In this document: one piece after another, positions 1,709 to 13,840 of the stretch
Layout of the letters: every line of letters begins with the position of its first letter
Position numbering within the stretch: the first letter of the stretch is position 1
Origin: Kofleriaceae bacterium
GTDB lineage: Bacteria; Myxococcota_A; Polyangia; Haliangiales; Haliangiaceae
Assembly: GCA_046597055.1 (NCBI GenBank)
Contig: JBKJLC010000284.1
Location: 1 to 64,000, forward strand
Length of the DNA stretch: 64,000 bases
Direction: 5' to 3'
The notes under the pieces: generated by a model
Database searches by the model: none
What the model was told of the DNA's origin: nothing
The model's input: only the letters and a program-made list of their open reading frames with translations
Program-made: the position numbers and the translations under genes

Positions 1709-2749
1709 CTACAGCGCGAACGCCTGGCTGGACGCCGACGACAGCCAGATGTCGCCGTCGGCGCCGACCGCCGCGCGAAACTGCCCGTACGTGTAGAGCG
1801 CGCCGTTGCCGTTGGTCGACGTGCGGCTGCCGTCGTAGCCGCACGCGACGCATCCGCGCCACAGGCCGGCGGGGTCGTTCAGGATGAACCCCCGCGGGTT
1901 GTAGCCGACGACGACGAGGATGTGCCCGGGCGCGGTGAACCAGCCGTGCACGATCACGGGGCGCCCGGCGTCCAGCTGCCGCTTGATCATCGCGAACGAC
2001 CCGGCGCGCGTCGATCGGCCGGTCAGGCCGAGGGCCTGGTACAGGCCGACCAGGCCCTCGGGTGACTGCCCGGCGCTCTTGCCGTACTGGACGTAGAGCT
2101 GATCGGCCGAGGTGGGCTTGCCCCAGAAGCGCAGCACCATCGAGGCGGACGTGACCCCGCAGGTCGCGCCGGGCTCGTGCTGGTTGAAGTACTGGTAGGC
2201 GTACGGCGCCGCGATCCAGCGGCGGTCGGCGCCGCCGAGCATGCCGCGCGACCAGCGCAGCCCTTCGCACGGCGCGCCGCCGCCGTCGGCGCGGCAGGCC
2301 TGCACCTCGGCCGCGCCGAACGGCCCGTAGACGGACGGCCCCTCGAAGCAGTAGCCCAGGTAGAGATCGAGCGTGGCGCCGGGCGGACAGCGGCCGGTGC
2401 CGCGGACCGAGCGCGCGAAGCTCGCCGACCAGCGTGCGCCGGCGCAGGCGTCGCCGCCGCCTTCGGCGCGGCAGCTCGCCTCCATTCCCGGCGTGAACGG
2501 GCCGACGGCCTCGGTTGCGGAGGCGCACCAGCGGTACGTGGCGTCGTAGCTCGTGTCGGGCGGGCACCACGGCGCGCCGGCCGCGAGCCAGCCGGCGTCG
2601 TCGCCGCCGGCCGTGCCCTCGGGCGCGGCTGGATCGTCCGTGGGGTTCTCGACGACATCGTCGTCAGCGACGCAGCCCGCGAGTGACAGTGCGAGCGCGA
2701 GCGCGGCGAGGTAGCTGAAGCGTGCGAGGCGGAGGTTCATCGAGTCCAT
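1709..2749 (-). CDS. Lipoprotein with two Cys-rich repeats and a C39-like (papain-fold) peptidase domain
   Basis: Lipobox LAGC; Q...TCGVTSASM, GHILVVVGY, NDPAG catalytic motifs; start ATG 2749 or 2740. Confidence 0.8.
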   Translation of the reverse strand: MDSMNLRLARFSYLAALALALSLAGCVADDDVVENPTDDPAAPEGTAGGDDAGWLAAGAPWCPPDTSYDATYRWCASATEAVGPFTPGMEASCRAEGGGDACAGARWSASFARSVRGTGRCPPGATLDLYLGYCFEGPSVYGPFGAAEVQACRADGGGAPCEGLRWSRGMLGGADRRWIAAPYAYQYFNQHEPGATCGVTSASMVLRFWGKPTSADQLYVQYGKSAGQSPEGLVGLYQALGLTGRSTRAGSFAMIKRQLDAGRPVIVHGWFTAPGHILVVVGYNPRGFILNDPAGLWRGCVACGYDGSRTSTNGNGALYTYGQFRAAVGADGDIWLSSASSQAFAL

Positions 2750-2770: not shown

Positions 2771-3203
2771 GCGTCGTGGCGCTACCACGGCTCGTACAAT
2801 GGGCCCGCGTGGCCGCGCCTCGCCGGATGCGCCTCGCCGTGTGCACCTCGCCGGTTGCACCCGGTGCGCGAACCCCCAGGCGCCGCACCTCGACGGCCCG
2901 CGCACCCGCCACGGCCGCCGCGGCGATCGGCCGGGCGTCGCGTCGCCGGAGGGCTGAGCGCCCGAGCGCCGAGCGCCCGACCTCGGAGGAGACGCGGGCC
3001 GCTCACGTCGCACGCCCGGGCTCGTCCGCGGCGACACGGCTGGGAGACGAGCGGCGCGCCGCCACCTCGGCGGGTCGGCCCGCCGCCCTCGGTCTCTCGG
3101 GGCCTCGGAATCCACGCCGGGCTCGCGAGTCTGCGCGCCGTCCGGCGGTGCGCTCAGGGCGACCTGACGATGGGTAGGATCCGGAGAGCGGCCCCTGGCG
3201 GTC

Positions 3204-4010
3204 CTAGCGGCCGAAGCCGTCGAGCTTGATCCAGGGGCCGGCTGTGTACGGGAACGACTGGTCGTAGTGGACATGCGCGACGTACCAGAGGGCGACGTCC
3301 TGGTTGTCGAGCGCCTCGCGCCCGATGTAAGCCGAGGGGAACGGGGCGGCGCCGTCGGTCGAGCGGGGCGAGAACGGAGCCCACTCGCCGTCGTGGTAGC
3401 GGATCGCGAACAACTCGGCGTCGTCCCAGGTGTGCGGCCGCAAGTTGACCGCGGCGCTCGAGCCGAAGTCGATCTGGCGCCACGAGAAGCCGTTCTCGTC
3501 GGCCTCGCCGGTGTGCGGGAACCAGCCCTCCTCGTCGACGCGCACCCAGCTGCCGTCGGCGAAGTACTCGAGGGCGTCGTGGCCGGCGCCATCGATGTCG
3601 AAGTCGAATCGCCAGTGCGGGTGATAGGTGTGCTGGTCGTGCACGCCCGAGCCGTAGATCGTCAGCCACGGGGCCAGCCGGCCGTCGTCGTGGAAGCGCC
3701 ACAGCTGCAGGTAGCTGTACGGCCCGCACACGAAGTTGGCCGACAGCTCGATGCCGCCGCGGAACTGCTGCACGCGCACGTTGCCGGCCAGGGTCCGGGT
3801 GCCGAGCGGCGCCCACCACGGACCGCGGGTCTCGAGGCCTTCGCTCTGGACGTCGAGGGCGTCGCGCTGGTGGTCGATCGTCACGTACGGCAGCGATGCC
3901 TCCCAGATCACGCGCCGGCCGCGATACTCGGCGAGGTAGATCATGATCCCGGCCGACTCGGTGAGCCGCCAGTGAAACTTCCAGTTGGCCTCGGTGATGA
4001 CGTTGCTCAT
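3204..4010 (-). CDS. Copper amine oxidase catalytic-domain-like protein (divergent, stand-alone)
   Basis: NWKFHW, GPYSYLQLWRFHDDGRL (cf. GNYDY..W.F..DG), His cluster + WRFDFDIDG, QDVALWY...H. Confidence 0.7.
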   Translation of the reverse strand: MSNVITEANWKFHWRLTESAGIMIYLAEYRGRRVIWEASLPYVTIDHQRDALDVQSEGLETRGPWWAPLGTRTLAGNVRVQQFRGGIELSANFVCGPYSYLQLWRFHDDGRLAPWLTIYGSGVHDQHTYHPHWRFDFDIDGAGHDALEYFADGSWVRVDEEGWFPHTGEADENGFSWRQIDFGSSAAVNLRPHTWDDAELFAIRYHDGEWAPFSPRSTDGAAPFPSAYIGREALDNQDVALWYVAHVHYDQSFPYTAGPWIKLDGFGR

Positions 4011-4017
4011 GGAGGGC

Positions 4018-4773
4018 TCACCACTGCGCCGCGGGGACGACCGCGGTCACGCTGTTATCGATCAGGTCGACCACCGCGACCACCGAGGGGTGCCCGGCGG
4101 CACGTCCGAACACGACCGCGGCCGAGCGCCGCGAGTACGCCAGGTCGCTCGGGTCCTTGCCCCAGTAGTGCATGGTGACCAGCGCCTCGTCGCCGAGCGA
4201 CAGGGACTCGCGCACGCGCTCGTCGAGCGACGCGATCGACATCGCGACCGCCTCTTCCTCGCGCGACAGCATCGGCTGGGCGCGATTGACGTCGAGATGC
4301 GCGACCACGCCCGCGTCGAGATCGATGCAGGCGTCGACGCACCGGTCGGCGGCGTAGTCGTAGACCACGACCCGCGCGAGGCGGTGGCCCGCCATCCAGT
4401 GCGGCGGCTTCACGACCAGCGGCTCGGTCGCGATGACGCGATAGCGGCCGATCTTCGCCATCCCCATGACCCGCTTGTCCTCGGTCAGGGTGCGGACCGC
4501 GTCGGCGATCTCGCCAGGCGTGAGCGGCTGGAACAGGCCGGGGTCGCTGCCGACGATGTCGGGCGCCAGGACGGCCTCGGGAGCCTGGTCGGGGCGGGCC
4601 TTGGTCAAGCGCGGGGCGGGCTTCGGCGCCCGGCGGTCGGTAGGCTTCGCAGCCGGCTTGGCCGGCTTGGCCGGCTTGGCCGGCTTGGCCGGCTTGGCCG
4701 CGGGTCGGGTCTCGCCACGCGCCTTGGTGGCAGGGGTCCGGACGGGCGCCCGGACCGACTTCTTGGTCGCCAT
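4018..4773 (-). CDS. Copper amine oxidase N-terminal-domain-like protein with Lys/Pro/Ala tail
   Basis: FQPLTPGEI motif, R.ARVVVYD; lies 7 nt upstream of the catalytic-like gene; start ATG 4773. Confidence 0.65.
   Translation of the reverse strand: MATKKSVRAPVRTPATKARGETRPAAKPAKPAKPAKPAKPAAKPTDRRAPKPAPRLTKARPDQAPEAVLAPDIVGSDPGLFQPLTPGEIADAVRTLTEDKRVMGMAKIGRYRVIATEPLVVKPPHWMAGHRLARVVVYDYAADRCVDACIDLDAGVVAHLDVNRAQPMLSREEEAVAMSIASLDERVRESLSLGDEALVTMHYWGKDPSDLAYSRRSAAVVFGRAAGHPSVVAVVDLIDNSVTAVVPAAQW
4651..4698. repeat. 9-bp tandem repeat (GCCGGCTTG)x~5 encoding (KPA)n
   Basis: Directly visible in the sequence. Confidence 0.9.
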
Positions 4774-4908
4774 GACGCGGACTATACACAGGAGATCGCC
4801 GGGGATTCGGCCTGCGGTCAGCAACCGCCGCGCGGTCGGAGCTTGACCTACATGGCCGGTCGCACGCGGCTTTAGATCGGCGCCCGGGTTCGTCCGTCGA
4901 AAGCACCC

Positions 4909-6006
4909 ATGTCGCGTCTCCTCCTGCGGTCGGTCCTCGCGGTCTCGCTGATGTCCTCCCTGGTCACGACCGGCTGCGCGCCGGCCTACGCCGATCGGGT
5001 GGCCCGCCCGTCGTCGCGCGTGCTGGTGCCGATGGCGATCGCGCCCGAGGCGGTCCGGTCGCCCTACCAGGTCGAGATCGTGGGTGATGGCGACACCCTC
5101 GACACCTTCTTCCACAGGGGTCGCTACTACGTGCATGGCGCCAGCGGCCAGCACTACGCGATCCGGGTCTCCAACCCGACCCCGCACCGGATCGAGGCGG
5201 TGGTCTCGGTCGATGGCATCGACGTCATCGATGGCGAGACCGGCGACATGCGCAAGCGTGGCTACGTGGTGCCGCCCTACGGCGAGGTCGTGATCGACGG
5301 CTGGCGGACGTCGCTGACCGACGTCGCGTCGTTCCAGTTCTCGTCAGTGTCGGGCAGCTACGCCGGCAAGAAGGGCAAGGCCCGCAACGTCGGCGTGATC
5401 GCGGTCGCGCTGTTCGCCGAGGACGCGCCGCCGCCCCCGCCGCAGATCATCCTCGACGATCAGCCCTACTACCAGGGCGATGGCTACGGCGACGAGGTCG
5501 AGGGCTATCTCGACCGCCGCGCGCCCGCCGGCGGCGGCGTCAGCAAGAGCAGCGGCGGTTCCGACCGCGAGGACCGGGGTGGTGGCAGCGGCCGCGTCTC
5601 GGCCAAGCGCCCGGCGCCGAGCGCGCCGCACGACTCGGTCGGCGAGGCCGATGCCCCGAGCGCGCCCACCAGCACCGGCGCGGTCGGTGGCGCGCTCGCG
5701 CCGTCGGCGCCGCCGCGGATGCAGCGCGACGAGTGTTGCCCGGCGCCGCCGACCCGCGAGCGCCTCGGCCTCGGCACCGAGTTCGGCGAGCAGCGCTACT
5801 CGGCCGCGAGCTACACCAAGTTCTCGCGCTCGAGCGACCGGCCGGTCGCGATCGCCGAGCTCCGCTACAACGACACCGGCGGCCTCCAGGCGATGGGCAT
5901 CCTGGTCGAGCAGCTCCCCGACGAGGGCGAGCTCATGACCCGCGAGACCGCCGATCCGTTCCCCGGCGACCGCGGCTTTGCCCGCCCGCCGGCCGGCATC
6001 CGCTGA
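4909..6006 (+). CDS. Conserved hypothetical exported protein
   Basis: Signal/lipobox-like N-terminus; blocks EAVVSVDGIDVIDG, GYVVPPYGEVVIDGWR, NVGVIAVALF, LGTEFGE; typical codon usage. Confidence 0.75.
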   Translation: MSRLLLRSVLAVSLMSSLVTTGCAPAYADRVARPSSRVLVPMAIAPEAVRSPYQVEIVGDGDTLDTFFHRGRYYVHGASGQHYAIRVSNPTPHRIEAVVSVDGIDVIDGETGDMRKRGYVVPPYGEVVIDGWRTSLTDVASFQFSSVSGSYAGKKGKARNVGVIAVALFAEDAPPPPPQIILDDQPYYQGDGYGDEVEGYLDRRAPAGGGVSKSSGGSDREDRGGGSGRVSAKRPAPSAPHDSVGEADAPSAPTSTGAVGGALAPSAPPRMQRDECCPAPPTRERLGLGTEFGEQRYSAASYTKFSRSSDRPVAIAELRYNDTGGLQAMGILVEQLPDEGELMTRETADPFPGDRGFARPPAGIR

Positions 6007-7529: not shown

Positions 7530-9467
<1,938 letters not shown>

Positions 9468-9470
9468 GGG

Positions 9471-10853
9471 TCAGGGCGCGCGCCCGGCGCGGACGTCCTC
9501 GTACAGGTTGGTGCGGAAGTAGGTGAAGACCTCGCCCTCGGCCCCGACCATGAGAATGTTGCGATCGCCGGCGCCGAACGGCGCGATCGCGACGCTCTTG
9601 CCGAACCGCTCCTCGTTCTCCGGCTGGGCCGGGTGCAACGCGGCAACCAGGTCGAACCCGAGCGGCGCCTCGCGGAACTTGTAGACGTACGCGGCGCCAC
9701 CGTTGGTGACTCCGTCGGGATCGGACTTGGGCGCGCCAATCACGATCTCGGGCACGCCATCGCCATCGAGATCGCCCACGGCGATCGAGTCGCCGAAGTC
9801 GCTGCCGACCTCACCGGGGACGATCTCGAAGGCCATGCCGCCGCCGAAGCGGACGAACACCTTGTTGAGGCTCGGCGCCGAGTAGATCAGGTCGGCCAGG
9901 CCCGCGGCCGGGTCGCCGTCGGCGACGTCGGGGAACTGCGCGGTGACGATGACCGCGCCGAGGTCGCCGGGTCCCTCGCTCGACGTGATGGTCTCGAGCG
10001 CGGGCGCGGCGCCCACGCAGCTGCCCGACGCGGTGTACAGCGTGGTGATCTGCGCCGGATCGAGCACCGTGATCTGCGAGCTGCCATTGCGCAGCACCTC
10101 GCCGCTGCCAAAGATGACCTCCGGGCCCGGGTGCGCGGCCAAGATGTCGGCGACGACGACGCCAAAGCCCCAGCGGTCGTCGTCGTCGAGCAAACAGCCC
10201 TTGATGGCGAAGGTGGAAGCGGCGCCGCCCTCGCTCTCGGCGACGTCCTGGATCACGACCAGCTGCGGGCCGCGGGTGAAGACCAGCTCCTTCACGGTAT
10301 CCACGCCGAAGCCGGGCAAGGTGGCGAAGGTGATGCCATCCGGCTTGAGGTTGGCCTTGAGCTCGTTGTTGACCATCACCTGGCCGGGCAGGTTGACCGA
10401 CTTGGACCGGTTGGTCTCGGGCAGGTTGCGGCCGTCGTAGATCGCGATGCGGGTCGGATCGTTGTCCTCGCCCTGGACCACGCCGAACGCGATCCGGTCG
10501 TCGGCCTCGTCGACCGCCAGCGCGGGGTTGTCGGGGAAGGTCGCGAACGACAGGCTCTGGCGGGGATCGATCGCGGTCACCGGCAGCCGCCCACCCTCGT
10601 CGTCGTACTGGAGCTGCGAGAGGCTCGCGCGCGACTTGCCGATCACGACCAGGTTGGTGCCAGCGCCGCGGGTGCGAGTCGCCACGATCGCCTCGCCGTA
10701 TTGACGCGAGTCGGTGATGTCGGGCGACTCGACCCGATCGACCCAGGCCTCGTCGGCGAGGTCGTCGAAGGCGCTGAAGTTGCAGCCGGCGAGGCCGAGG
10801 CCGAGCGTGAGCGACAGGCCGAGCGACGGCGACAGGCGGCGACGGATCACCAT
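9471..10853 (-). CDS. FG-GAP / integrin-alpha beta-propeller lipoprotein
   Basis: Lipobox LAGC; FGDSIAVGDLDGDGVPEIVIGAP, GGAAYVY, RFGKSVA; start (10853 or 10850) overlaps the upstream stop. Confidence 0.85.
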   Translation of the reverse strand: MVIRRRLSPSLGLSLTLGLGLAGCNFSAFDDLADEAWVDRVESPDITDSRQYGEAIVATRTRGAGTNLVVIGKSRASLSQLQYDDEGGRLPVTAIDPRQSLSFATFPDNPALAVDEADDRIAFGVVQGEDNDPTRIAIYDGRNLPETNRSKSVNLPGQVMVNNELKANLKPDGITFATLPGFGVDTVKELVFTRGPQLVVIQDVAESEGGAASTFAIKGCLLDDDDRWGFGVVVADILAAHPGPEVIFGSGEVLRNGSSQITVLDPAQITTLYTASGSCVGAAPALETITSSEGPGDLGAVIVTAQFPDVADGDPAAGLADLIYSAPSLNKVFVRFGGGMAFEIVPGEVGSDFGDSIAVGDLDGDGVPEIVIGAPKSDPDGVTNGGAAYVYKFREAPLGFDLVAALHPAQPENEERFGKSVAIAPFGAGDRNILMVGAEGEVFTYFRTNLYEDVRAGRAP

Positions 10854-12298
10854 GACATCTCCATGTTCAGGCCGGCGTACTCGGGGCCGATCGCCGGGGT
10901 CAACGCGAGCGCGCGCACGTCGAGGGTCGCCGTCGACGGCGCGCCCTTGTCGCGGAACGTGTAGTAGATCGCGGCCAGGCCGAGCACGCCCGACAGCGCG
11001 TAGGCAGCGTCGGCGCCGATCGCGAAGTACTTGCCGCGCGTGAAGCGCGGATCGTTCTGGTCGATCGGTGGGTCGCCGGCGGAGAGCTCGGCCTTCAGCG
11101 CGTCGTAGTTCTTGTTGGACTCGAGGCCCAGGTAGATGCCTCCGCCGAGGAACGCCGCGCTGAACACGTACGCGACCACCGCGTCGCTGCGGCCGGGCTT
11201 CTTGGCGAGCGACGCCTTGATCGAGATCTCGGTCTTGGCCTGGACCTCGATGGTCGTGAGGTACGGCTTGTAGCCGGGGCGGCGCACCGAGATCCGGTGG
11301 CGACCCTCGCGGATCGGCTTGCGACACGGGCCGCGCGGACACAGGATCTCGCCGTCGAGGGAGATCTCGGTCGCCTCGATCCCGACGCCGCGGATGTTGA
11401 GGTAGCCGACCGGCGAGCCCTTGAGCGCCGCCGTGATCTCGTGGGTCTCGCCGGCGATCACCTCGATGTCCTGCTCGACCTCCTCGTACCCGTCGGCCGA
11501 GATCCACACCTTGTGCTTGCCCGGCTTGAAGTTGCCCGAGAACGGCGTCTTGCCGATCGCCCCGACCGACTTGTCGTCGAGGAAGATGCTCGCGCCCGGC
11601 ACGTTGGATTTGATCTCGAGCCAGCCGAGGTAGTCCTCCTCGGACAGCACGACCTGCAGCACCATCAGCAGCGACGGGTCGGCCGAGGTGCGGCCCTCCT
11701 TGCTCTTGAAGCCGCGCTTCTCGACCAGGTAGGCGAACTCGCCCTCCATGGTGCCCGACCACGGCGTCTGGGCGAACGGGCCCTTCTCCTTGCCGTTGAT
11801 GTAGATGTTCGCGCCCTGCGGCTCGCTCTCGATCACGATCAGGCCGCGGACCTTGGCATCGCCGAGCTGCTCGACCGCCTCCGACGGCGTCGCGGTGGGC
11901 GGCGTGCCCGGGGTCGCGGGCGCGGCCTTGAGCCGGCGCGATTCTTCCTCGAGCACGCCGATCGCCTTCTGGAGCTTGTCGCGGTCGGGCGCCTCGGGGT
12001 CCTCGGCGAGGTAGCGCTTGTAGTATTCAATCGCCGTGTCGTAGGAGGCAGCGTCGGCGGCCTTCTTGCCCTTCATGTGATAGGCGGCGCCGATGTTGTA
12101 GAGAAACTGCGGCATCTTGCGGGCGTCGTACGCCTTCTTGAAGCCGGCGGCCGCGTCGTCGTACCGGCCCGCCAGGTACTCCTGCTGGGCCTGGTTGAAC
12201 GACGTCTGCGCAGCCTTCCACTCGGGGCTATCGGCTGCGGCGGGACTCGCGAGCGCGCCCAGCACGATCGAAAGGGCAAGCAATATGGATAGTTTCAT
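10847..12298 (-). CDS. Secreted TPR + PEGA-repeat protein (paralog 2)
   Basis: Signal peptide, TPR helices, ESEPQGANIYING and KSNVPGASIFLD PEGA motifs, C-terminal hydrophobic segments ending in W. Confidence 0.9.
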   Translation of the reverse strand: MKLSILLALSIVLGALASPAAADSPEWKAAQTSFNQAQQEYLAGRYDDAAAGFKKAYDARKMPQFLYNIGAAYHMKGKKAADAASYDTAIEYYKRYLAEDPEAPDRDKLQKAIGVLEEESRRLKAAPATPGTPPTATPSEAVEQLGDAKVRGLIVIESEPQGANIYINGKEKGPFAQTPWSGTMEGEFAYLVEKRGFKSKEGRTSADPSLLMVLQVVLSEEDYLGWLEIKSNVPGASIFLDDKSVGAIGKTPFSGNFKPGKHKVWISADGYEEVEQDIEVIAGETHEITAALKGSPVGYLNIRGVGIEATEISLDGEILCPRGPCRKPIREGRHRISVRRPGYKPYLTTIEVQAKTEISIKASLAKKPGRSDAVVAYVFSAAFLGGGIYLGLESNKNYDALKAELSAGDPPIDQNDPRFTRGKYFAIGADAAYALSGVLGLAAIYYTFRDKGAPSTATLDVRALALTPAIGPEYAGLNMEMSW

Positions 12299-12436
12299 AC
12301 CGGCACCTCCCGCCAGGATAAACCGGCTGCCGCCGCGATGCTACGGCGCCCGCCGGCGACGGGCTGGCACGGTCCGGCACGGTCCACCGGTACGCCGATC
12401 CATGGCGCCGCGGTGAATCGACCTCGAACGGTGCCC

Positions 12437-13840
12437 TTAGAAGCGGCCGCCGAGCCCGAGCCCGGCGTAGTCGCGGCCGATCGTCGGCTCGAGCGCGACC
12501 GCGCGCACGTCGATCGACCCGGTCGAGGGCGGGCCCTTGTCGCGGAACGTGTAGTACACAGCCGACAGGCCGATCACGCCGGCGAGACCCCAGCCGGCAT
12601 ACGCGCCGTAGCGGACGAACTTGCGGTCTTCGTAGAGCGAGTCCGTCGGCTCGAGGCCGCGCTCGTAGAGGAACGCGCCGGTCGCGCCGCCGGCGAACAG
12701 GGCCGAGAACACGTACGCGACCACCGCGTCGGAGCGCGACGGATTCTTGACCAGGTCGGGGCGGATCGAGACCTCGGTCCGAGCCTGCACGTCGAGGCGG
12801 ACCTGGTACGGCTTGTAGCCGCCGCGGCTGATGACGACCGTTCGTGCGCCCTCCTTGACCGGCTTGCGGCACGGGCCCCGCTCGCACAGCACCGCGCCGT
12901 CGACGATGATCCGGGCCCGCTCGAGCCCGGCGCCGCGGATGTCGACGTAGCCGACCGGCGAGCCCGACAGCGGCATGTCGAGCGCGGCGACCTCACCGGC
13001 GACGATCTCGACCTCCTTGACCGTCTCGTCGTAGCCGTCGGCCGAGACCCAGATCGTGTGCTTGCCAGGCTTGAAGTTCCCCGAGAACGGCGTCTGACCG
13101 ATCGCGCCGGCCGCCTTGTCGTCGGCGTAGATGCGGGCGCCGGGCACGTTGGACTTGATCTCGAGCCAGCCGAGGTAGTCCTCCTCGGACAGCACCACCT
13201 GCAGCACCACCAGCCGCTGGGGATCGGGCGCGATCGGGCTCTCCTTCGACTTGTGACCCCGCTTCTCGATGATGACCTTGTGCGGGCCGTCGAGGCTGCC
13301 CGACCACGGCGTCTGCGCGAACACGCCGTTCTTCTTGTCGTCGAGGTAGATGTTGGCGCCCTGCGGCTCGGTCTCGATCACGACCAGGCTGCGGACCTTG
13401 GCGTCGAGCTTCTGGACCTCCTCGGATTGCGGCTCGGTTGGCGCGCCGGTGCCGCCGCTGGCTGGCTTGAGCCGCGCGATCTCCTTCTCGATCACGCCGA
13501 TCGCCTTCTCGACCTGCGGCTTGTCCGCGGCCTGCGGCACCTCGCGCAGGTAGTCGCGGTAGAACTTCACCGCGAGCTCGTAGGCCGCGCCGTCGTTCTG
13601 CTTCTTGCCCTTCAGGTAGTAGGCGGCGCCGGTGTTGTAGAGGAGGTCGGGCAGCCGCTTGGCCGCGTACGCCTCCTGGAACTTGGCGGCGGCCGCGTCG
13701 TAGTCACCCTGGATGACCGCGCGCTGGGCCTGATCGAACAGGACCTGGGCGCGCTGGAGACCATCGGGCTGGGCGGCGGCGGGCGCCGCGCCGACCGCGC
13801 ACAGCGCGGCGAGGCAGAGACAGGCGAGGAGACGCTTCAT
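12437..13840 (-). CDS. Secreted TPR + PEGA-repeat protein (paralog 1)
   Basis: Same architecture; shares VLQVVLSEEDYLGWLEIKSNVPGA, TPFSGNFKPGKH and YYTFRDKG with its neighbour. Confidence 0.9.
   Translation of the reverse strand: MKRLLACLCLAALCAVGAAPAAAQPDGLQRAQVLFDQAQRAVIQGDYDAAAAKFQEAYAAKRLPDLLYNTGAAYYLKGKKQNDGAAYELAVKFYRDYLREVPQAADKPQVEKAIGVIEKEIARLKPASGGTGAPTEPQSEEVQKLDAKVRSLVVIETEPQGANIYLDDKKNGVFAQTPWSGSLDGPHKVIIEKRGHKSKESPIAPDPQRLVVLQVVLSEEDYLGWLEIKSNVPGARIYADDKAAGAIGQTPFSGNFKPGKHTIWVSADGYDETVKEVEIVAGEVAALDMPLSGSPVGYVDIRGAGLERARIIVDGAVLCERGPCRKPVKEGARTVVISRGGYKPYQVRLDVQARTEVSIRPDLVKNPSRSDAVVAYVFSALFAGGATGAFLYERGLEPTDSLYEDRKFVRYGAYAGWGLAGVIGLSAVYYTFRDKGPPSTGSIDVRAVALEPTIGRDYAGLGLGGRF

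What the first reader, a model, noticed from the sequence alone, without database searches (positions are those of the whole stretch)
3204..4773. Split, minimal, cytoplasmic copper-amine-oxidase-like two-gene system with a rewired cofactor site
Seen: two co-oriented genes 7 nt apart, one like the N-terminal domains (FQPLTPGEI) and one a 268-aa catalytic-like domain; neither has a signal peptide. Known: copper amine oxidases are single ~650-750-aa chains with N-Y-D/E (Tyr becomes topaquinone), an HxH copper pair before RxDxDxDG, and a third His after DxVxW. Here the Tyr is kept but the context is GPYSY; the His region is HDQHTYHPHWRFDFDIDG (HxY at the canonical spacing, plus extra His); the end is DVALWYVAHVH. 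Inference: a heterodimeric CAO-fold protein with a different cofactor or metal site, or a non-enzymatic copper-binding role.
Basis: partly seen in the sequence, partly recalled or inferred. Interest (0 to 1): 0.7.

Follow-up and report, generated by a model that had tools for sequence, protein, structure and literature searches.

The report
Split amine-oxidase relative without its cofactor
A family of soil myxobacteria keeps, almost without exception, a two-gene miniature relative of copper amine oxidase that has lost the residues needed to make and use the enzyme's built-in quinone cofactor and has gained new, strictly conserved histidines, so the old fold has probably been re-purposed for a different, still untested metal-dependent job.

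Summary
Gene 1 (4018-4773) folds like the D2+D3 domains of copper amine oxidase (CAO). Gene 2 (3204-4010) is an arm-less D4 domain (Z 25, 257 residues aligned to AGAO). The split is real: 79 of 79 related loci with room upstream, none fused. A heterodimer is predicted (0.82, best control 0.00), though likeness to solved CAOs may drive this. The pair is near-core and single-copy in the window's family (111 of 117 genomes).

It is probably not a topaquinone enzyme. Mapped on E. coli CAO, the base Asp383 is absent (0 of 158), Tyr369 is His, His526 is Tyr, His689 is Tyr/Phe, and the cofactor Tyr is Phe or Ala in 27 of 158. Conserved instead are pocket residues H47/H124/H127/Y129 and a cross-strand pair H130/H246.

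It nests within a wide family of mini-CAOs. Many keep the full copper triad. A split sister clade keeps both Tyr and the Asp and lies beside tyrosinase, multicopper-oxidase or galactose-oxidase-like genes (14 of 17 loci).

Best reading: a quinone-free, His-rebuilt metalloprotein, most likely an enzyme. Metal and substrate are untested. New variant of a known kind.

The parts
4781..4786 (-). -10-like hexamer TATAGT, 7 nt before the ATG of gene 1 (probable leaderless promoter)
   Evidence: TAnnnT-type box within 17 nt of the start in 68 of 71 regions examined, strict form at -12 to -15 in 59 of 71; no shuffled control was run. The two-box sigma-70 scan found nothing.
4018..4773 (-). Gene 1 (P0002, 251 aa): CAO D2+D3-like chain
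   Evidence: Z 10.3 to ECAO, 8.8 to AGAO 9-194; Foldseek E 8e-8; PRK11504 positions 16-145, E 2e-5; AGAO-like_N2 in 21 of 40 members, best E 0.015
4564..4773 (-). Lys/Ala/Pro-rich basic low-complexity N-terminal tail of gene 1 (about 70 aa); not a signal peptide; role unknown
   Evidence: a basic tail of varying length precedes the core in the orthologs listed
4011..4017 (-). 7-nt intergenic spacer, where canonical CAOs have a linker
   Evidence: TGATG stop/start overlap in 33 of 79 orthologous loci (counted by hand from the table), suggesting translational coupling
3204..4010 (-). Gene 2 (P0001, 268 aa): arm-less CAO D4-like beta-sandwich
   Evidence: (pLDDT 84, pTM 0.84); 35- and 25-residue deletions against ECAO 418-454 and 494-520
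3870..3872 (-). His47, at the position of ECAO Tyr369
   Evidence: His in 158 of 158; Tyr in 86 of 87 other mini-CAOs
3810..3812 (-). Ala67, at the position of the catalytic base Asp (ECAO Asp383); lost
   Evidence: no Asp or Glu at 64-69 in 158 of 158; the aligned column is Asp in 26 of 26 sister-clade proteins
3717..3719 (-). Tyr98, at the topaquinone position (ECAO 466); variable
   Evidence: Tyr 131, Phe 26, Ala 1 of 158
3615..3641 (-). His124-His132 segment: H124 (new), H127 (=His524, kept), Y129 (=His526, replaced), H130 and H132 (opposite face, new)
   Evidence: H124 157, H127 158, Y129 157, H130 158, H132 156 of 158; one genome left out by the motif filter (L118) has Gln at 127
3264..3287 (-). 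Trp242-Tyr249 strand: H246 and H248 (opposite face), Y249 (=His689, replaced)
   Evidence: H246 158, H248 151 of 158; position 249 is Tyr 87, Phe 66, His 5

Best explanation
The two chains form a cytoplasmic heterodimer that rebuilds one CAO protomer (D2-D3 plus D4) without the arms that make canonical CAOs homodimers. It makes no topaquinone and is not an amine oxidase. The old copper pocket has been rebuilt: H127 remains, and H47, H124 and Y129 most likely form a new His3-Tyr site for a divalent transition metal (copper by ancestry; Zn, Mn, Fe or Ni not excluded). D3 caps the channel through which a small molecule reaches that site, so the most likely role is a housekeeping, quinone-free metalloenzyme. 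A second, surface pair H130/H246, flanked by H132 and H248, could capture or relay metal. Shown: fold, split, conservation, residue mapping. Predicted: the heterodimer. Inferred: metal binding, site geometry, catalysis. The substrate is unknown.
For: Fold. Complex score 0.82, best of 3 controls 0.00; that mark was reached by 116 of 157 solved complexes and 2 of 215 mismatched pairs; runs agree in at least 75% of contacts, partner pLDDT at least 89; interface covers D4 residues 61-68, 95-98 and 121-124, the pocket mouth. Five canonical catalytic residues changed. The register is self-consistent: H127+Y249, H130+H246, R134+W242 and D138+D238 all sum to 376, as their ECAO equivalents all sum to 1213, and in 87 other mini-CAOs His at 129 goes with His at 249 (55 of 56 against 4 of 31) and His at 130 with His at 246 (39 of 51 against 6 of 36) (kin are not independent). 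Six His are at least 156 of 158 conserved at 69% mean identity. Near-core and single-copy. The sister clade sits beside copper oxidases and 17 of 26 of its proteins carry His-rich tails.
Against: No coordinates were available, so no metal-site distances were measured; the geometry rests on strand-register arithmetic. The complex may pass by likeness to solved CAOs. No copper-oxidase neighbour in 0 of 99 loci of this clade, and no amine-catabolism gene among the recurring neighbours, so context gives neither metal nor substrate. One small-genome member has Gln at 127 and another Cys at 132. Invariant His could equally serve acid-base catalysis or ligand binding without metal.
Confidence: 0.42

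Rival explanations
1. Non-catalytic metal-handling protein (copper buffer, chaperone or sensor), descended from an accessory factor of a copper-oxidase gene cluster.
For: Many invariant His in two clusters. Sister clade adjoins tyrosinase, multicopper-oxidase or galactose-oxidase-like genes in 14 of 17 non-redundant loci of 2.5 kb or more and often has His-rich tails. A triad-keeping relative in Variovorax lies between a tyrosinase-domain gene and a galactose-oxidase-like gene.
Against: No such neighbours in this clade (0 of 99); tyrosinase found in only 3 of 41 genomes of the order; no galactose-oxidase E-set match in the own genome (whose controls also gave none). No repeat or palindrome in the upstream region. 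A conserved D2-D3 cap over a buried pocket is more than a chaperone usually needs (inference).
Confidence: 0.25
2. Metal-free enzyme or ligand-binding pseudoenzyme: the His and Glu residues act as acid-base catalysts or bind a small molecule, as in the structurally related mutarotase-type supersandwich proteins.
For: Two of three copper ligands are lost; E199 is 157 of 158 and Q102 158 of 158 conserved; after the CAOs, many of the next structural neighbours are galactose mutarotase-like proteins (Z 13-14).
Against: Mutarotase hits are far below the CAO hits (Z 22-25) and show only a shared fold. Two separate clusters of invariant His are more typical of metal sites (general knowledge).
Confidence: 0.18
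3. Still a quinoprotein amine oxidase, with copper held by new ligands and Tyr98 converted to topaquinone.
For: Tyr98 is kept in 131 of 158; three pocket His (47, 124, 127) could replace the triad; the Ca-site Asp residues and the D2-D3 cap are kept.
Against: Phe or Ala at 98 in 27 of 158 across about 16 changes, whereas it is Tyr in 86 of 87 other mini-CAOs and 26 of 26 sister proteins; no base Asp; Asn465 is Pro; Tyr369 is His. PMC3382800 (passages read) calls these residues strictly conserved and reports that only Glu could replace the ECAO base, with kcat down 6.4 x 10^4.
Confidence: 0.08
4. Dead subunit that pairs with an active CAO or mini-CAO encoded elsewhere in the genome.
For: An earlier scan note (e1-6830091, unchecked) describes such an enzyme/pseudoenzyme pair in another family.
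Against: Broad profiles find only this gene in the own genome; 38 of 41 family genomes match and show only the ortholog; a full-length canonical CAO was found in 3 of 61 order genomes, two of which lack the pair; both dimer arms are deleted.
Confidence: 0.03

Closest known systems
Topaquinone copper amine oxidases (EC 1.4.3.21; Pfam PF01179; E. coli ECAO/TynA, Arthrobacter AGAO, Hansenula HPAO)
   Same: D2, D3 and D4 folds in the same gene order; His524 kept; Asp533/535/678 positions kept (that these form the buried Ca site is recalled); R-x-D-x-D and D-x-x-x-W motifs.
   Different: Two chains; D4 of 268 aa against about 385 aligned in AGAO; both arm regions deleted; Asp383, Tyr369, Asn465, His526 and His689 replaced; cofactor Tyr dispensable; new invariant His at 47, 124, 130 and 246.
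Uncharacterised mini-CAOs that keep the copper triad (e.g. Variovorax WP_162487223.1, fused; Kitasatospora WP_033213704.1; Microvirga ossetica, split)
   Same: Arm-less D4; the extra H130/H246 pair; fused, stand-alone and split forms all occur.
   Different: 55 of 87 representatives keep HxH, the third His and the Tyr, so they may be true quinoenzymes; this clade does not.
Split sister clade from soil metagenomes (P0146, P0142; one named Vicinamibacterales)
   Same: Two genes in the same order (32 of 33 upstream ORFs match the gene 1 profile); His526 to Tyr; third His lost; H127, H130, H246 and E199 mostly kept.
   Different: Keeps Tyr369, the base Asp and the cofactor Tyr in 26 of 26; often has a His-rich tail; lies beside copper oxidases.
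His/Tyr-ligated metal sites (galactose oxidase Cu His2Tyr2; 3-His cupins) - recalled, not tested
   Same: Precedent for His plus Tyr ligation of a redox metal.

Membership tests
CAO structural superfamily | D4 beta-sandwich fold | tested here: met
   Z 25.0, rmsd 2.7 A, 257 aligned to AGAO 234-618; Foldseek E 1e-10
CAO structural superfamily | D2 and D3 domains | tested here: met
   Present as a separate chain: Z 10.3, rmsd 4.1 A, 170 aligned; Foldseek E 8e-8, TM 0.66
Topaquinone copper amine oxidase (enzyme) | T-x-x-N-Y-D/E motif with invariant Tyr | tested here: not met
   G-P-Y/F-x; Tyr in 131 of 158
Topaquinone copper amine oxidase (enzyme) | Three copper His (ECAO 524, 526, 689) | tested here: not met
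   H127 kept; Y129 (157 of 158); position 249 His in only 5 of 158
Topaquinone copper amine oxidase (enzyme) | Catalytic base Asp (ECAO 383) | tested here: not met
   No Asp or Glu at 64-69 in 158 of 158; Asp in 26 of 26 sister proteins at the aligned column
Topaquinone copper amine oxidase (enzyme) | Conserved Tyr that binds TPQ O4 (ECAO 369) | tested here: not met
   His47 in 158 of 158
Topaquinone copper amine oxidase (enzyme) | Single chain, homodimer through two beta-hairpin arms | tested here: not met
   Split in 79 of 79; 35- and 25-residue deletions at ECAO 418-454 and 494-520 (that the arms lie there is recalled). Homodimerisation itself was not modelled.
Topaquinone copper amine oxidase (enzyme) | Bound Cu, quinone, amine-dependent H2O2 | not testable with these tools
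   Needs protein
Metallochaperone or metal-storage protein | Metal binding and transfer; metal-responsive expression | not testable with these tools
   Indirect only: His clusters; copper-oxidase neighbours in the sister clade but not here

The most novel reading that the evidence does not exclude
The family records a stepwise exit from self-processing quinone chemistry. Arm-less mini-CAOs keep the copper triad. One clade swapped His526 for Tyr and lost His689 but kept both Tyr and the Asp, and its split branch sits beside tyrosinase, multicopper-oxidase and galactose-oxidase-like genes, which may install its Tyr quinone in trans. The Kofleriaceae branch then dropped the quinone altogether and built a new His3-Tyr centre, giving the first cofactor-free CAO-fold metalloenzyme, with a new reaction in the core physiology of these myxobacteria.
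Probability: 0.22. Interest if true: 0.82.

Novelty: new variant of a known kind. Interest (0 to 1): 0.62.

Why it matters
CAOs are the textbook self-processing quinoenzymes, and the review passages read here describe their Tyr, Asp and three His as strictly conserved. This family is a natural, strongly selected experiment in which most of those residues are replaced while fold and channel cap stay. It is annotated by databases as 'Cu2+-containing amine oxidase' or 'hypothetical', probably wrongly. The small two-chain, arm-less scaffold and its graded relatives (full triad; His-to-Tyr with Tyr and Asp kept; quinone-free) make directly testable which residues topaquinone biogenesis needs, whether dimer arms are needed, and how a metal site is rebuilt. 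As a near-core gene pair it is also a marker and a lead for the physiology of the mostly uncultured Kofleriaceae.

Tried and rejected
Frameshift or assembly artefact: rejected (a contig of another study bridges the junction, X4 record 19, 3725-4194, 10 other letters, no gaps). Fused close orthologs: none found; longer-protein searches gave 5 proteins of at most 344 aa for gene 1 and 3 distant fused proteins at 22-26% identity for gene 2; the tool calls such blanks weak evidence. Active paralog in the same genome: not found. Alternative ORFs over the region were not pursued, since conservation follows the two genes. Sequence-only searches of gene 1 against PDB found nothing useful, and hhalign to single-sequence ECAO was weak (probability 18% and 0.3%), so the residue mapping rests on the multiple alignment and the fold matches. 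Promoter and terminator scan: nothing. Expression: no RNA holder listed. Neighbourhood in this clade: a divergent lipoprotein-like gene of unknown function (87 of 99 loci; no Pfam or NCBIfam match, DUF7918 on 11% of one Atlas cluster), a Ser/Thr kinase, PEGA-like and SEC-C proteins; read as general synteny. Literature: nine searches found no description of this family; supplements were not searched and most subscription papers are not held. One paper on the Kitasatospora cluster was not held, so whether that distant member has been discussed is open. Zinc rode along in the complex job, but its position is not reported, so it gave no site information.

Full report
Observation. The window encodes two co-oriented minus-strand genes, 4773-4018 (251 aa) and 4010-3204 (268 aa), 7 nt apart, with the quoted motifs. 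The closest named relatives are Kofleriaceae and other Haliangiales genomes, so the window is taken to be of that family (inference). Neither chain has a hydrophobic N-terminus (crude test). Gene 1 begins with a basic Lys/Ala/Pro-rich tail. A TATAGT box lies 7 nt before its ATG, and a box of that type recurs in 68 of 71 regions examined (no shuffled control), which fits a leaderless, constitutive-type promoter.

Fold. The AlphaFold2 model of gene 2 (pLDDT 84) matches CAO D4 domains: Z 25.0, rmsd 2.7 A, 257 residues against AGAO 234-618. The top eight rows are all CAO-family chains and the next fold scores 14.9 (Foldseek). The model of the gene 1 core matches CAO D2+D3 (Z 10.3; Foldseek E 8e-8). 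Against E. coli TynA the D4 chain lacks 35 residues at 418-454 and 25 at 494-520, where I recall the two dimer arms to lie. PMC3382800 (passages read) says the arms hold the dimer and form part of the partner's active-site wall.

The split is conserved. Of 80 genome loci, 79 had room upstream; all 79 carry the partner as a separate ORF (33 with a TGATG overlap, counted by hand; one, L073, has an early stop in the partner). All 19 further, more divergent loci of the order do too. Gene 2 was found in 115 of 125 genomes of the order and in 111 of 117 other genomes of the family, almost always once (two of these genomes, G332 and G333, are unpublished, and they enter this tally, the tally and possibly the set). 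In a phylum-wide sample only 7 of 301 matched. A full-length canonical CAO was seen in 3 of 61 order genomes, and no active mini-CAO paralog was found. The complex prediction supports binding without showing it: score 0.82, best control 0.00; the mark was reached by 116 of 157 solved complexes and 2 of 215 mismatches; runs agree in at least 75% of contacts, partner pLDDT at least 89. Likeness to solved CAOs may explain the pass. The interface places partner residues 127-136 (core numbering) on D4 residues 61-68 and 95-98. PMC12714705 (passages read) puts the AGAO substrate pocket at the boundary of the three domains.

Active site. Mapping to ECAO: H47 = Tyr369, P97 = Asn465, Y98 = TPQ466, H127 = His524, Y129 = His526, Y249 = His689, D136/D138/D238 = Asp533/535/678. 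A67 aligns with the Asp that is invariant in the sister clade (26 of 26) and corresponds to the base Asp383; this one position is mapped through the sister clade, not directly. From 251 sequences, 158 remained below 90% identity (mean 69% to the query; the motif filter dropped L118, which has Gln127 and Pro248). Among them Y98 is Tyr 131, Phe 26, Ala 1, with about 16 changes on the tree; no Asp or Glu occurs at 64-69; 249 is Tyr 87, Phe 66, His 5. Conserved are H47 (158), H124 (157), H127 (158), Y129 (157), H130 (158), H132 (156), H246 (158), H248 (151) and E199 (157). Cross-strand sums are constant (376 here, 1213 in ECAO), so H127, Y129 and Y249 face the old copper pocket, while H130 and H246 are direct neighbours on the other face, flanked by H132 and H248. 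H124 lies in the short loop that replaces the second arm. These placements are inferred from register; no coordinates were available.

The wider family. A search of 1.84 billion representatives gave 370 hits, of which 150 were listed. Of 159 proteins aligned, 99 passed a coverage filter, and 87 remained after removing four canonical CAOs, seven of this clade and one truncated row. Tyr369 and the cofactor Tyr are each kept in 86 of 87; 55 keep the whole copper triad; His at 129 and His at 249 go together (55 of 56 against 4 of 31). A FastTree tree rooted on canonical CAOs shows triad-keeping mini-CAOs at the base and a single His526-to-Tyr clade (support 1.0) that contains this clade (0.998); the grouping with P0142/P0146 has no strong support there (0.36), so 'sister' means closest by search score and shared architecture. 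That group is also split (32 of 33 upstream ORFs match the gene 1 profile). It keeps Tyr369, the Asp and the cofactor Tyr in 26 of 26, has His-rich tails in 17 of 26, and lies beside multicopper-oxidase, galactose-oxidase-like or tyrosinase genes in 17 of 21 loci of 2.5 kb or more, 14 of 17 after merging near-identical loci. The same queries hit 0 of 99 loci of the Kofleriaceae-type clade. Cultured carriers of triad-keeping forms include Variovorax (fused, between tyrosinase-domain and galactose-oxidase-like genes), Nonomuraea, Bacillus, Microvirga (split) and Kitasatospora.

Mechanism. A residue that must become the cofactor does not toggle to Phe many times, and a CAO without its base is all but dead (PMC3382800, passages read). 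So this clade is very unlikely to be a topaquinone amine oxidase. Yet 44 of 268 columns are at least 99% conserved, the new His residues sit in and behind the old pocket, and the partner keeps conserved residues at the predicted channel mouth (Y132 95 of 96, W133 96 of 96). The simplest reading is a rebuilt His3-Tyr metal site acting on a small molecule, with a second surface His site (0.42). Metal handling without catalysis (0.25) and metal-free catalysis or binding (0.18) remain open. Against all metal readings: nothing was measured, and the genomic context of this clade is uninformative.

Prior knowledge. Nine literature searches found no description (listed under Tried and rejected; search listings only, apart from passages of PMC3382800, PMC12714705 and PMC6769254; supplements not seen). 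Earlier notes of this scan describe split mini-CAOs that keep the copper site and copper-less CAOs beside di-haem enzymes; these are leads, not support, and none matched this clade by sequence or place.

Verdict. Real, conserved and apparently undescribed. It works like a CAO protomer in architecture but fails the membership test for the enzyme family on five residue-level or architectural features. New variant of a known kind; interest 0.62.

Noticed in passing
L154-L192 (metagenome loci), e.g. L177:1243-4383, L154:225-3278: About 1000-aa fusions of multicopper-oxidase domains (some with a cupredoxin) and a galactose-oxidase-like propeller, with no obvious signal peptide, beside the split sister-clade pair and often a tyrosinase: a probable cytoplasmic copper-oxidase gene cluster.
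   Followed up: partly
L149:3821-10785 (Variovorax sp. WDL1 plasmid): A fused triad-keeping mini-CAO flanked by a gene annotated only as FG-GAP repeat protein, which has an N-terminal tyrosinase-like domain, and by a galactose-oxidase-like gene.
   Followed up: partly
window 4909-6006 (+): Divergent lipoprotein-like gene of unknown function (DUF7918-like by a weak Atlas lead), adjacent to the pair in 87 of 99 loci and often only about 60 nt away, suggesting a compact bidirectional promoter with a conserved GATCTA box.
   Followed up: partly
window 1709-2749 (-): Lipoprotein-like peptidase C39 family protein downstream of the pair; not among the recurring neighbours.
   Followed up: no
window 2815-2861 and 2949-3152: Three 19-nt direct repeats at 14-nt spacing and imperfect inverted repeats in the intergenic region; 3006-3181 resembles sequence on other contigs of the same runs, possibly a dispersed repeat element.
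   Followed up: no
P0212 (AKO69632.1, Kitasatospora phosalacinea): A triad-keeping stand-alone mini-CAO whose accession may come from a biosynthetic-cluster deposit (recalled, not verified; paper not held).
   Followed up: partly
P0149, P0169, P0235, P0296-P0298: Secreted-looking fused D2-D3-D4 mini-CAOs of the His-to-Tyr clade, several Cys-rich, that keep the Tyr residues but have lost most or all copper His.
   Followed up: no
window 10847-13840 (-): Tandem paralogous TPR/PEGA-like genes next to a Ser/Thr kinase (7530-9467), syntenic in many Kofleriaceae loci.
   Followed up: no
L152:4966-7751 (Bacillus wiedmannii plasmid): A mini-CAO match in two pieces next to a group II intron reverse transcriptase gene.
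   Followed up: no
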